Sequence record: PQ299149
Strand: one strand, 5' to 3'
DNA: 42,883 nt
DNA from: Escherichia phage LLS
Shown here: in pieces, positions 4,442 through 6,388 of the stretch
Numbering within the stretch: position 1 is the first letter of the stretch
How the letters are laid out: each line of letters opens with the position of its first letter
The notes under the pieces: generated by a model
Told to the model about the DNA's origin: nothing
The model's input: only the letters and a program-made list of their open reading frames with translations
The model's database searches: none
Made by a program: the position numbers and the translations under genes

Positions 4442-6388
4442 ATGCAGGCCAGCAATAACAGCGAGGCCGACATTTTTATTTATGACGAAATCGGGTACTG
4501 GGGCGTAACGGCGAAACAGTTCGTCAATGATCTCCGGGGACTTGGGGACGTCACCCACATCAACCTTTATATCAACTCGCCCGGTGGTGATGTCTTCGAC
4601 GGTATTGCTATTTATAACGCGCTGAAGCACCACGGCGCGGCGATTACCGTGCATATCGACGGTCTGGCGGCCTCCATGGCCTCGGTGATTGCGATGGTAG
4701 GCAATCCGGTCATCATGCCTGAAAACACGATGATGATGATCCATAAGCCCTGGGGGTTTGCTGGTGGTGACGCGAGCGATATGCGCGACTATGCGGATCT
4801 GCTCGACAAGGTTGAATCCGTTCTTATCCCGGCTTATGCGCAGAAAACCGGAAAATCCACCGAAGAAATTGCGGCAATGCTGGAGGACGAAACCTGGATG
4901 AACGGCAGCGAGTGCCTTGAACTGGGTTTTGCCGACCAGGTGACACCATCCCTTCAGGCTATGGCCTGTATTCATTCAAAACGTATTGAGGAATTTGAAA
5001 AAATGCCAAAAAGCATTCGCAACATGATCACCCCGCCGCGTAACACTACCCAGCGTGATCCGGTTATTACCCAGCCTCAGGCACCGCAGGCAAAAACAGA
5101 TCCGGCACCGGATGAAAATGCGATCCGCGCGCAGGTGTTGGCTGAGCAGAAAGCCCGTGTTAACGCTATCGGCGATCTCTTTGCCATGTTCGGCAATAAG
5201 CACATGGAACTGCAGAATCAGTGTGTGGCCGACCCTGATTGCTCCGTCGATAAGGCGAAAGATTTGCTGCTGGCAGAACTTGGTAAAACGGCCACGCCGT
5301 CCAATAAAACCACCCAGCCGCATATTCATGCGGGCAACGGTAACTTCGTCGCGGATGGTATTCGCCAGGCACTGATGGCGCGTGCCGGGTTCGAAGGTCA
5401 GGAGCGGGATAACGTTTATAACGGTATGACGCTGCGCGAGTATGCGCGTATGGCCCTGACAGAAAAAGGTATCGGCGTGGCCAGCTACAACCCGATGCAG
5501 ATGGTTGGCCTGGCGCTGACCCACAGCACCTCTGACTTTGGCAACATTCTGCTTGATGTTGCGAACAAAGCGCTGATTCAGGGCTGGGACGAGGCGCAGG
5601 AAACCTTCGAGCAGTGGACCAAAAAAGGCCAGCTGTCGGACTTCAAAACGGCGCATCGTGTCGGTATGGGTGGTTTCCCTTCTCTGCGACAGGTTCGCGA
5701 AGGGGCTGAGTACAAGTACATCACTACCAGTGACAAAGGCGAAACCATCGCGCTTGCCACATATGGTGAAATCTTCTCAGTAACCCGCCAGGCGATCATT
5801 AACGACGATCTGAATCAGCTTACCGACGTACCGATGAAGATGGGGCGCGCGGCGAAAGCAACGATTGGCGATCTGGTTTACGCCATTCTGACCAAAAACC
5901 CGAAACTCTCAGACGGAAAGGCGCTGTTCCATGCCGATCACAAGAACCTGAGCTCGGGCGCAATTTCTGTGGCCAGCCTGGACGAATCGCGCAAGCTGAT
6001 GCGTCTGCAGAAGGAGGGGGAGCGAACCCTTAATATCCGTCCGGCCTACATGCTGGTGCCCGTCGCCCTGGAAACTCTGGCAAATCAGACCATCAAGTCG
6101 GCCAGTGTTAAAGGTGCAGACATCAATGCCGGGATCGTTAACCCTATCCAGAACTTTGCAGAAGTCATTGCCGAACCACGCCTGGATGAAGCTGATGCGA
6201 AAGCCTGGTATCTGGCTGCCGCGAAGGGCACCGACACTATTGAGGTTGCTTATCTCAATGGCGTCGACACGCCGTACATCGATCAGCAGGAAGGCTTCAC
6301 CACTGATGGTATCGCCACGAAAGTGCGTATTGATGCCGGTGTTGCACCGCTGGACTATCGCGGCATGACCAAATCCTCTGGTCAGTAA
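4442..6388 (+). CDS. Fused ClpP-like prohead protease / HK97-fold major capsid protein
   Basis: N-terminal ~190 aa carry ClpP/S14-like motifs (INSPGGDVFDG, GLAASMAS); C-terminal ~350 aa look like a major capsid protein; first in-frame ATG after portal stop is 4442 (the ORF-track start at 4094 lies inside portal in another frame). Confidence 0.75.
   Translation: MQASNNSEADIFIYDEIGYWGVTAKQFVNDLRGLGDVTHINLYINSPGGDVFDGIAIYNALKHHGAAITVHIDGLAASMASVIAMVGNPVIMPENTMMMIHKPWGFAGGDASDMRDYADLLDKVESVLIPAYAQKTGKSTEEIAAMLEDETWMNGSECLELGFADQVTPSLQAMACIHSKRIEEFEKMPKSIRNMITPPRNTTQRDPVITQPQAPQAKTDPAPDENAIRAQVLAEQKARVNAIGDLFAMFGNKHMELQNQCVADPDCSVDKAKDLLLAELGKTATPSNKTTQPHIHAGNGNFVADGIRQALMARAGFEGQERDNVYNGMTLREYARMALTEKGIGVASYNPMQMVGLALTHSTSDFGNILLDVANKALIQGWDEAQETFEQWTKKGQLSDFKTAHRVGMGGFPSLRQVREGAEYKYITTSDKGETIALATYGEIFSVTRQAIINDDLNQLTDVPMKMGRAAKATIGDLVYAILTKNPKLSDGKALFHADHKNLSSGAISVASLDESRKLMRLQKEGERTLNIRPAYMLVPVALETLANQTIKSASVKGADINAGIVNPIQNFAEVIAEPRLDEADAKAWYLAAAKGTDTIEVAYLNGVDTPYIDQQEGFTTDGIATKVRIDAGVAPLDYRGMTKSSGQ

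What the first reader, a model, noticed from the sequence alone, without database searches (positions are those of the whole stretch)
4442..6388. Prohead protease and major capsid protein fused in one ORF, no separate scaffold gene
A single 648-aa ORF has a ClpP/S14-like serine protease domain in the first ~190 residues, a ~100-residue Pro/Gln/Ala-rich linker (likely scaffold or delta-domain equivalent), and an HK97-fold capsid domain. In lambda and HK97 these functions are on separate genes. The fusion implies obligatory autoproteolytic release of the capsid domain during maturation. A terminator plus a small DUF2190-like gene follow.
Basis: partly seen in the sequence, partly recalled or inferred. 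Interest (0 to 1): 0.45.

Follow-up and report, generated by a model that had tools for sequence, protein, structure and literature searches.

The report
Known fused protease–scaffold–capsid phage gene
This is the already described "tripartite" head gene of Gifsy-2-type lambdoid phages, in which a ClpP-like protease, a scaffold segment and the capsid protein share one reading frame; it is ordinary for this phage group, but comparative data suggest a second, internal start that would also make a protease-less scaffold–capsid protein.

Summary
Window 4442-6388 is an open 648-codon frame with a ClpP-type protease domain, a roughly 170-residue linker and a capsid-protein domain. A terminator-like hairpin and a head-decoration gene (the former DUF2190 family) follow it.

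It is not new. [quoted passage not shown] The protein is 62% identical over its full length to the Gifsy-2 gene. It scores 995 bits (cut-off 475) on NCBIfam NF045540, [quoted passage not shown]. Its scaffold–capsid part has thousands of relatives, most of them fused.

Two refinements:
- **Start codon.** Translation probably starts at GTG 4373 (671 aa), not ATG 4442.
- **Internal start.** Just after the protease domain there is an invariant ATG (Met188, nt 5003). A Shine-Dalgarno-like core always precedes it, and it sits at the gene's strongest dip in synonymous-site variation. A sister family with an unrelated HK97-type protease has the same feature. This suggests a nested scaffold–capsid product, as with lambda C/Nu3. 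That step is inferred, not shown.

The parts
4373..6388 (+). Full-length protease–scaffold–capsid gene: 671 aa, 73.2 kDa, probable start GTG 4373. It overlaps the end of the portal gene by 56 nt.
   Evidence: AAGGAGG lies 5 nt upstream of the GTG. The upstream frame is open in all homologues. A Ser-Trp-Phe/Tyr motif is conserved through non-adjacent Ser codons in the 13 nt after the portal stop. 'Met1' is Ile in Gifsy-2, Fels-1 and F10. RefSeq mEp043 and most gene callers also give 671 aa.
4361..4367 (+). Shine-Dalgarno sequence AAGGAGG for the GTG 4373 start.
   Evidence: The 'KEA.V' codon context is conserved in close relatives.
4442..4444 (+). It is probably an internal Met.
   Evidence: The upstream context has only a weak Shine-Dalgarno match. 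The position is Ile in three homologues.
4463..4945 (+). ClpP-like (MEROPS S14-type) prohead protease domain, aa 8-168 counted from ATG 4442. Ser78 is at nt 4673-4675, His101 at 4742-4744 and Asp165 at 4934-4936.
   Evidence: Pfam PF00574, E 2.9e-39. NCBIfam NF045542 Clp_rel_HeadMat, 226.8 bits against a cut-off of 120. PDB ClpP chains at E 1e-19 with the motifs aligned. Catalytic residues conserved in 185, 185 and 184 of 185 sequences.
4988..5005 (+). Candidate internal translation start: the Shine-Dalgarno-like GAGGA (4988-4992), a 10-nt A/T-rich spacer, and ATG for Met188 (5003-5005). It would give a 461-aa, 50.1-kDa scaffold–capsid product.
   Evidence: Met188 is invariant in 185/185 sequences. 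A Shine-Dalgarno core lies 9-10 nt upstream in 185/185, against a background of 0.09-0.11. Codon 183 is always xAG. This is the gene's strongest synonymous-site dip (0.38; permutation p<0.0002). The gene's lowest-GC 41-nt window is centred at 4989.
5027..5113 (+). Variable Pro/Thr/Gln/Ala-rich spacer, aa 196-224.
   Evidence: It varies in length and sequence among homologues.
5114..5287 (+). Conserved helical domain resembling lambda Nu3 scaffold, aa 225-282.
   Evidence: It is conserved into the sister family with the HK97-type protease. It is the best-predicted part of an otherwise poor AlphaFold model, with helices at pLDDT about 64-78. PHROG cross-hits link it to lambda Nu3/gpC. hhalign against Nu3 gives E 0.0096 at low probability.
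5288..5320 (+). Second short variable spacer, aa 283-293. This is a candidate region for the maturation cleavage.
   Evidence: Variable and Thr/Ser/Pro/Asn-rich in the alignments. The cleavage site itself is not determined.
5321..6385 (+). Capsid protein: a conserved N-terminal segment (aa 294-337) and the capsid-protein core (aa 338-645).
   Evidence: Pfam PF25209, E 6.6e-60, and PF10124 Mu-like gpT, E 1.9e-9. A profile hit to solved phage capsid chains 8rkc/8rkx at E 1.8e-10.
6411..6429 (+). Terminator-like hairpin GCCC-GTAA-GGGC followed by T7.
   Evidence: Annotated as a terminator in mEp043. A terminator-like hairpin is conserved in 94/97 distinct homologous intergenic regions.
6441..6458 (+). 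Second conserved hairpin, CAGCCCC-GCAA-GGGGCTG, directly before the Shine-Dalgarno sequence (GGAG, 6462-6465) of the decoration gene.
   Evidence: The stem sequence differs among homologues while the pairing is kept.
6471..6797 (+). Head decoration (cement) protein gene, 108 aa.
   Evidence: PF09956, E 2.9e-22. phrog_122 'head decoration', E 1.5e-38.
2929..4428 (+). Lambda-family portal gene immediately upstream.
   Evidence: PF05136, E 7.4e-82. TIGR01539, 454.6 bits.

Best explanation
The gene is the LLS orthologue of the Gifsy-2 'tripartite capsid gene'. One reading frame encodes a ClpP-like serine prohead protease, a Nu3-like helical scaffold segment flanked by flexible spacers, and a capsid protein of the Phage_capsid_4 / Mu gpT type.

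Shown here: the architecture, the conserved catalytic residues, family membership and synteny (gpW-like adaptor, portal, fusion, decoration protein).

Inferred from the Gifsy-2, HK97 and lambda precedents: the polyprotein co-assembles on the portal into a T=7 procapsid with the protease and scaffold parts inside. The protease then removes itself and the scaffold from the capsid domain. The shell expands during DNA packaging, and trimers of the downstream decoration protein stabilise it.

Inferred from comparative sequence analysis: translation starts at GTG 4373. A second, in-frame initiation at ATG 5003 (Met188) makes a protease-less scaffold–capsid protein, like HK97 gp5 as described in the literature or like lambda Nu3 nested within C. 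The ratio of the two starts, rather than a 1:1 fusion, would then set the number of proteases per procapsid.
For: Identity of the window:
- It starts with the cos overhang GGGCGGCGCGCT and is 42,883 bp long, matching phage LLS.
- The LLS paper states that these head proteins resemble those of Gifsy-2, whose protease and coat genes are fused.

Homology:
- 99.4-99.7% amino-acid identity to mEp043, mEp213, Eeyore and Flotzy, and 62.3% over 100% of the length to Gifsy-2.
- The same gene order in Gifsy-2, cdtI, F10, Fels-1, an Stx2d phage, PSTCR8lys and RcHotPocket.
- NF045540 at 995 bits against a cut-off of 475, and phrog_133 at 1124.7 bits.

Domains and catalytic residues. Capsid domain against solved capsid chains. 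Linker against lambda Nu3.

Start codon.

Internal start:
- Met188 is invariant, and a Shine-Dalgarno core precedes it in 185/185 sequences. Five other invariant Met codons have the core in 0, 0, 1, 0 and 62 of 185.
- The lowest synonymous-variation window is at codons 178-192 in the LLS clade (0.38, permutation p<0.0002) and at codons 170-184 in the cdtI/Stx clade (0.52, p=0.025).
- In the sister family with an HK97-type protease, the junction Met is invariant in 77/77. A Shine-Dalgarno core lies 5-8 nt upstream in 76/77, even though the upstream hexapeptide takes 44 different forms.
- Some representative proteins of about 445-470 aa begin with Met-Pro and align from near the homologous start of the query; P0157 and P0161 resemble the LLS sequence from Met188.
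- The lambda C/nu3 in-frame nesting is confirmed in the record's annotation.
Against: - No protein-level data for LLS were available. The Gifsy-2 paper could not be read, so the processing, the T number and the cleavage site rest on memory and on secondary citations.
- The AlphaFold model was unusable (mean pLDDT 41), so the capsid fold is inferred from family membership only.
- The synonymous-site dip is absent in the most divergent clade (Gifsy, Fels, F10; ratio 1.18).
- The spacing between the Shine-Dalgarno core and the ATG in the ClpP family (9-10 nt from a 4-nt core) is longer than optimal.
- The conserved Glu-Glu/Asp-Phe...Met-Pro peptide could partly explain the nucleotide conservation in that family.
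Confidence: 0.93

Rival explanations
1. It is a simple obligate 1:1 fusion. Every capsid subunit is made with its own protease, and there is no internal initiation. The conserved GAGGA...ATG reflects protein-level constraint on a conserved helix, or a ribosome-pausing element that helps the protease domain fold.
For: The Glu-Glu/Asp-Phe-x-x-Met-Pro peptide is conserved in the ClpP family. The most divergent clade shows no synonymous-site dip. The Shine-Dalgarno spacing is long, at 9-10 nt. A T=7 procapsid could physically hold about 415 copies of the 337-residue N-terminal part (my own volume estimate, not computed with a tool).
Against: Codon 183 is always xAG, even when the residue is Glu, Gln or Lys, although GAG makes up only 35-42% of Glu codons in the enteric clades. 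In the sister family the upstream peptide is hypervariable (44 hexapeptides), yet it always encodes a Shine-Dalgarno core 5-8 nt before an invariant Met. Other invariant Met codons lack the motif.
Confidence: 0.3
2. It is an assembly or sequencing artefact: a lost stop codon or a frameshift has merged a protease gene with a capsid gene.
For: None from the tools. In HK97 the two genes are adjacent with only a 2-nt gap, so a merger would need just one error.
Against: The LLS genome gave five identical sequences from four phage isolates, one of them sequenced twice. The uninterrupted frame occurs in 185 distinct homologous coding sequences at 53-100% identity, in 73 phage records and in 33 complete E. 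coli genomes. NCBI curates the fusion as a family. The rare broken copies stand out: PAN70 is disrupted in its reading frame and VT1-Sakai carries an IS629 insertion.
Confidence: 0.01
3. The N-terminal domain is a catalytically dead ClpP relic that serves only as a scaffold or targeting module, and maturation is done by a host protease or by none.
For: No activity assay exists for this protein. The scores against true cellular ClpP models are far below their cut-offs.
Against: Ser78 and His101 are invariant and Asp165 is nearly so across 185 sequences. The domain passes the curated 'head maturation protease, ClpP-related' model (226.8 bits against 120). No other protease gene lies in the head module.
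Confidence: 0.04

Closest known systems
Gifsy-2 tripartite capsid gene (STM1034.3n; Effantin et al. 2010, Virology 402:355)
   Same: 62.3% identity over the full length. Same order of ClpP-like protease, central domain and capsid protein. Same neighbours: gpW-like adaptor, portal, then the fusion, then a gene of about 108 aa that matches the LLS decoration gene in position and size.
   Different: The spacers differ in length and sequence. At the position of the LLS ATG 4442, Gifsy-2 has Ile. The Gifsy-2 capsid structure (T=7, lambda gpD-like decoration trimers) is known; nothing is known experimentally for LLS.
mEp043 / mEp213 gp05 and NCBIfam NF045540 'ClpP-like prohead protease/major capsid protein fusion protein'
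   Same: 99.4% identical protein. The HMM match runs end to end at 995 bits. RefSeq annotates the same 671-aa product and the same terminator.
   Different: Essentially nothing. Public annotations often call it only 'head maturation protease', which hides the capsid part.
Lambda C / Nu3 / E
   Same: A protease with a scaffold at its C-terminal end. Nu3 is nested in-frame within C. There is remote similarity between Nu3 and the LLS linker. Both have a lambda-family portal and a decoration protein.
   Different: Lambda's protease is annotated as an S49 family peptidase, not a ClpP-type one. Lambda E is a separate gene placed after D. The LLS decoration protein belongs to the Phage_cement_2 family; I did not compare it with lambda gpD.
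HK97 gp4 / gp5
   Same: The protease gene is immediately followed by the capsid gene, whose N-terminal delta domain is reported to act as the scaffold (from memory). The predicted LLS short form would be the equivalent of gp5. A terminator is annotated after the capsid gene in both phages.
   Different: HK97 has two separate genes, a protease that the record calls only 'head maturation protease' (the HK97 prohead-protease family is a different family from ClpP), and no decoration gene annotated in the stretch examined; capsid crosslinking instead of decoration is from memory. There is no detectable sequence similarity to gp5 (hhalign probability 0.2%).
NF045541 / phrog_4523 fusion with an HK97-type protease (for example Rhodobacter phage RcHotPocket gp10)
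   Same: A homologous linker and capsid module (33% identity), the same gene order, and the same invariant junction Met preceded by a Shine-Dalgarno core.
   Different: The N-terminal protease is of the Peptidase_S78 (HK97) type and is unrelated in sequence to ClpP.
Herpesvirus UL26 / UL26.5 protease–scaffold nesting
   Same: A protease–scaffold long form and an in-frame scaffold-only short form come from one coding region (established knowledge; compare the title of PMC11565193).
   Different: In herpesviruses the short form comes from an internal promoter, and the capsid protein is a separate gene.

Membership tests
NCBIfam NF045540 ClpP-like prohead protease/major capsid protein fusion protein | Full-length HMM score above the curated cut-off | tested here: met
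   995 bits against a cut-off of 475, covering profile positions 2-652 of 652.
NCBIfam NF045540 ClpP-like prohead protease/major capsid protein fusion protein | N-terminal ClpP-related head maturation protease with the catalytic Ser and His (and Asp) | tested here: met
   NF045542 at 226.8 bits against 120. Ser78, His101 and Asp165 align with the ClpP motifs and are conserved in 185, 185 and 184 of 185 sequences.
NCBIfam NF045540 ClpP-like prohead protease/major capsid protein fusion protein | C-terminal HK97-fold major capsid domain | tested here: inconclusive
   The sequence evidence is strong: PF25209 at E 6.6e-60 and solved capsid chains 8rkc/8rkx at E 1.8e-10. The fold itself could not be modelled (pLDDT 41).
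Gifsy-2-type tripartite capsid gene | Orthology and synteny with Gifsy-2 STM1034.3n | tested here: met
   62.3% identity over 100% of the length, with an identical gene order.
Gifsy-2-type tripartite capsid gene | Proteolytic removal of the protease and central domain from the mature capsid protein; a T=7 decorated capsid | not testable with these tools
   This needs SDS-PAGE, mass spectrometry or cryo-EM of LLS particles. T=7 for Gifsy-2 is cited.
Cellular ClpP (ATP-dependent Clp protease proteolytic subunit) | Score above the equivalog cut-off (TIGR00493) | tested here: not met
   72.2 bits against a cut-off of 308.6. It has a ClpP-like fold family signature but is not a cellular ClpP.
Nested protease/scaffold genes (lambda C/Nu3 type) | An in-frame internal ribosome-binding site and start codon after the protease domain | tested here: inconclusive
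   The comparative signals are strong, but there is no evidence at the level of translation.
Nested protease/scaffold genes (lambda C/Nu3 type) | A scaffold segment homologous to Nu3 | tested here: met
   The support is weak but reciprocal: Nu3 against phrog_133 at E 2.2e-6, and the LLS linker against phrog_53 at E 1.6e-3 within its Nu3 part. hhalign gives E 0.0096 at 4% probability.
HK97 gp5-type capsid protein with delta domain | Detectable sequence similarity to HK97 gp5 | tested here: not met
   hhalign probability 0.2%, E 0.27. The resemblance is architectural only.

The most novel reading that the evidence does not exclude
The 'fusion' would really be a nested gene pair conserved across two large families that carry unrelated proteases (ClpP-type and HK97-type). 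Internal initiation at the invariant junction Met (LLS nt 5003) would produce a scaffold–capsid protein as the main building block. The full-length protein would serve as the minor carrier of the protease, so that the strength of the two start sites sets the protease dose per procapsid. I found no description of this in the literature I could search, but Effantin et al. 2010 could not be read and may discuss it.
Probability: 0.55. Interest if true: 0.4.

Novelty: already known. Interest (0 to 1): 0.2.

Why it matters
The fusion itself only confirms that LLS carries the Gifsy-2/mEp213-type head module, which is published, curated and very common. Its practical value is for annotation:
- Many records label this gene only 'head maturation protease' or 'Clp protease', so the phage appears to lack a capsid gene.
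- Start codons are called inconsistently, giving products of 643-686 aa.

The possible nested start matters a little more. It would explain how these phages avoid making one protease per capsid subunit. It would also link the lambda arrangement (C/Nu3), the HK97 arrangement (gp4, gp5) and the fused arrangement as variants of one expression logic.

Tried and rejected
- **AlphaFold2 on the 671-aa protein.** With 59 homologues at 81-94% identity the mean pLDDT was 41. The model was unusable, so no fold search was run.
- **Profile-based homologue search for diversity.** It again returned mostly enteric sequences at roughly 72-100% identity.
- **Lambda Nu3 profile from IMG/VR.** All 80 loci were 98-100% identical, so no profile could be built.
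- **Effantin et al. 2010.** The paper is not held in the library, and papers citing it gave no cleavage-site details.
- **Searches for prior descriptions of an internal start.** They found nothing relevant, and one candidate preprint was not readable.
- **hhalign against HK97 gp5.** No similarity.
- **Rfam scan of 4300-6900.** Only a chance-level hit.
- **Consensus terminator scan.** It missed the 4-bp-stem terminator.
- **-1 frameshift site at GAAAAAATG.** By eye I considered and rejected this. The heptamer is not in a slippery register, and it is absent in Gifsy-2.
- **Antisense ORFs 4283-4975 and 4976-5656.** I rejected them as the cause of the synonymous-site constraint, because the constrained window spans their boundary.
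Full report
**What the window is.** The window starts with GGGCGGCGCGCT and is 42,883 bases long. The paper on phage LLS (PMC12315714) gives that same 12-nt cos overhang and that same genome length (GenBank PQ299149). It also says the left 18.5 kb resembles mEp213, and megablast agrees at 96-98% identity. The window is therefore the LLS genome in lambda orientation, and the finding lies in its head module.

**Checking the observation.** Window 4442-6388 translates to 648 residues plus a stop.
- Pfam finds CLP_protease at residues 8-168 (E 2.9e-39) and Phage_capsid_4 at 338-645 (E 6.6e-60), with a weaker Mu-like gpT hit.
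- Solved ClpP chains match at E 1e-19, and the active-site motifs align: GLAASMA with GMAASMA, MIHKP with MIHQP, FADQV with LIDQV. This places Ser78, His101 and Asp165.
- Across 185 distinct homologous coding sequences these three residues are conserved in 185, 185 and 184.
- A profile of the C-terminal part hits solved phage capsid chains 8rkc and 8rkx at E 1.8e-10.
- The downstream gene 6471-6797 is PF09956 and PHROG 'head decoration'.
- GCCC-GTAA-GGGC plus T7 at 6411-6429 is annotated as a terminator in mEp043.
- The module reads: small terminase, large terminase, gpW-like adaptor, portal, fusion, decoration protein, a small PF13856 protein, gpZ, gpU. There is no separate scaffold or protease gene.

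**It is already known.**
- The protein is 99.4-99.7% identical to those of mEp043, mEp213, Eeyore and Flotzy. It is 74-77% identical to those of cdtI and the Stx phages, 62-64% to Gifsy-2, Fels-1 and PSTCR8lys, and 58% to Pseudomonas F10-like phages, always over the full length. In all, 73 phage records match over their full length.
- The gene order is the same in each.
- The Gifsy-2 gene is the 'tripartite capsid gene' of Effantin et al. 2010. [quoted passage not shown]
- NCBI curates the family as NF045540, and the LLS protein scores 995 bits against a cut-off of 475. The NCBI genome annotation pipeline uses that family name in 33 complete E. coli genomes, including Nissle 1917.
- An exhaustive search with the scaffold–capsid part finds 11,104 representative clusters at E ≤ 0.001. 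Most of the best 150 are 620-790 aa long, with the match starting at about residue 200-300, so they are fused forms.
- A sequencing artefact is excluded.

**Start codon.**
- The frame is open back to 4094.
- GTG 4373 has AAGGAGG 5 nt upstream, whereas ATG 4442 has no good Shine-Dalgarno sequence.
- In Gifsy-2, Fels-1 and F10 the residue aligned with 'Met1' is Ile (ATC or ATT), so their start must be upstream.
- The 13 nt between the portal stop and ATG 4442 encode a Ser-Trp-Phe/Tyr motif conserved in all homologues. The Ser codons used are TCG, TCC, AGC and AGT, which points to selection on the amino acid.
- The weak AlphaFold model places these residues in the first beta strand.
- RefSeq mEp043 and most gene callers give 671 aa.

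I conclude that the gene is probably 4373-6388 (671 aa, 73.2 kDa) and overlaps the portal gene by 56 nt.

**Anatomy of the linker.** The region between the domains is about 170 residues long and composite:
- a conserved segment at 169-195 that contains Met188;
- a variable Pro/Thr/Gln/Ala-rich spacer at 196-224;
- a conserved helical domain at 225-282;
- a short variable spacer at 283-293;
- a conserved segment at 294-337 that leads into the Pfam capsid domain.

Pfam has no family for the linker. In PHROGs, lambda Nu3 hits the fusion family (phrog_133) in its linker region at E 2.2e-6. The LLS linker hits the lambda gpC family (phrog_53) within the part that Nu3 covers, at E 1.6e-3. hhalign aligns residues 222-277 with Nu3 residues 105-158 (E 0.0096, low probability because the template is a single sequence). 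No similarity to HK97 gp5 is detectable.

**A conserved internal start (inferred).** I collected 185 distinct coding sequences of the ClpP-type family, at 53-100% identity to LLS, from IMG/VR and phage records. I then measured synonymous-site variation in 15-codon windows.
- In the LLS clade (80 sequences) the lowest window in the whole gene is codons 178-192. Its observed/expected ratio is 0.38, against a mean of 1.00 and SD of 0.15. None of 5,000 column permutations reached it.
- In the cdtI/Stx clade the lowest window is codons 170-184 (0.52, p=0.025).
- In the most divergent clade there is no dip.
- The dip is centred on Met188 (ATG 5003-5005), which is invariant in 185/185.
- A Shine-Dalgarno core (AGGA within GAGGA, CAGGAG or AAGGAG) lies 9-10 nt upstream in 185/185. 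The background is 0.107 gene-wide and 0.088 locally.
- Codon 183 is always xAG whether the residue is Glu, Gln or Lys, although GAG makes up only 35-42% of Glu codons in the enteric clades.
- The five other invariant Met codons carry the motif in 0, 0, 1, 0 and 62 of 185 sequences.
- The lowest-GC 41-nt window of the gene is centred at 4989 (27% against a mean of 54%), and local folding there is weak.

The sister family NF045541 carries an HK97-type (Peptidase_S78) protease fused to the homologous linker and capsid module.
- Its junction Met is invariant in 77/77 distinct sequences.
- A Shine-Dalgarno core lies 5-8 nt upstream in 76/77, with a local background of 0.11.
- The upstream hexapeptide takes 44 different forms (KEAE, DEEAN, TRTT, QRSL, KGND and others), which all encode AAGGAGG, GAGGAGG, ACGAGGA, AGAGGAG or AAAGGAA. 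Conservation here is therefore at the nucleotide level, not the protein level.

Some representative proteins of about 445-470 aa begin with Met-Pro and align from near the start of the 461-aa query. Examples are MPPSAKNLFEP and MPKSAKRFFEP, compared with LLS MPKSIRNMITPP. Their genomic context could not be checked.

Lambda shows the precedent: nu3 (5132-5737) is nested in-frame within C (4418-5737). In HK97 the protease gene ends 2 nt before the capsid gene. The fused genes look like that arrangement with the stop codon lost and the capsid gene's own ribosome-binding site kept.

I estimate about 0.6 probability that initiation at 5003 is functional. It would give a 461-aa, 50.1-kDa scaffold–capsid protein.

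**Mechanism.**
- Shown: the architecture, the catalytic residues, family membership and the genomic context.
- Inferred from Gifsy-2, HK97 and lambda: the long form, and probably the short form, co-assemble on the portal with the protease and scaffold inside. The ClpP-like protease then cleaves off everything N-terminal to the capsid domain. The cleavage site is unknown; the variable spacer at 283-293 is my guess, and it would give a shell protein of about 38.6 kDa. The shell expands and binds the decoration protein.
- The terminator after the gene is conserved and has an annotated counterpart after the HK97 capsid gene. In a Q-antiterminated lambdoid late operon it would be read through (established knowledge). 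It may instead stabilise the capsid mRNA, but I did not test this.

**Verdict.** The finding is correct in observation and interpretation, but it is already known. It is published for this phage group, noted in the LLS paper, curated by NCBI and PHROGs, and present in thousands of protein clusters. The only possibly new points are the probable GTG 4373 start and the comparative evidence for a nested internal start shared by the two fusion families.

Noticed in passing
window 1-42883: The window is the complete phage LLS genome (GenBank PQ299149 according to PMC12315714). It begins at the cos 5' overhang GGGCGGCGCGCT and is 42,883 bp long.
   Followed up: yes
window 6389-6470: The intergenic region has two hairpins: a terminator-like hairpin with T7 (6411-6429), the conserved sequence ATACCTGAAA, and a second GC-rich tetraloop hairpin (6441-6458) abutting the decoration gene's Shine-Dalgarno sequence. 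A terminator-like hairpin is present in 94 of 97 distinct homologous intergenic regions, and the stems of both hairpins differ in sequence while staying paired in the examples shown. Its function (attenuation, mRNA stability or processing) is unknown.
   Followed up: partly
L008 (Rhodobacter phage RcHotPocket) 2263-4305 and loci L249-L328: A sister family (NF045541, phrog_4523) fuses an unrelated HK97-type protease to the same linker and capsid module. It keeps an invariant junction Met with a Shine-Dalgarno core 5-8 nt upstream, even though the upstream peptide is hypervariable.
   Followed up: yes
window 4373-4428: The probable start of the fusion gene overlaps the last 56 nt of the portal gene in another frame. 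The Shine-Dalgarno sequence AAGGAGG (4361-4367) lies inside portal coding sequence.
   Followed up: partly
phage records AP000400.1 (VT1-Sakai) and KJ959591.1 (PAN70): The VT1-Sakai orthologue is interrupted by IS629, and the PAN70 orthologue is annotated as disrupted in its reading frame. These are natural or sequencing-derived broken copies of the fusion gene.
   Followed up: no
window 6823-7065: This small 80-aa gene matches Pfam PF13856 'Gifsy-2', which Pfam describes as 'ATP-binding sugar transporter from pro-phage'. PHROGs calls it a minor tail protein, and it sits between the head and tail genes. The Pfam description looks like a misnomer for a head-tail joining protein.
   Followed up: no
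E. coli genomes: A 98.5%-identical copy of the gene lies in a prophage of the probiotic strain E. coli Nissle 1917. Only 33 of 5,426 complete E. coli genomes match at this (megablast) sensitivity, 32 of them at 95-99% identity and one at 75%.
   Followed up: no
public annotations: The same gene is variously labelled 'head maturation protease', 'Clp protease ClpP', 'terminase protein', 'major capsid protein', 'protease/scaffold protein' or 'Nu3'. Called lengths range from 643 to 686 aa, so both the name and the start codon are inconsistent.
   Followed up: partly
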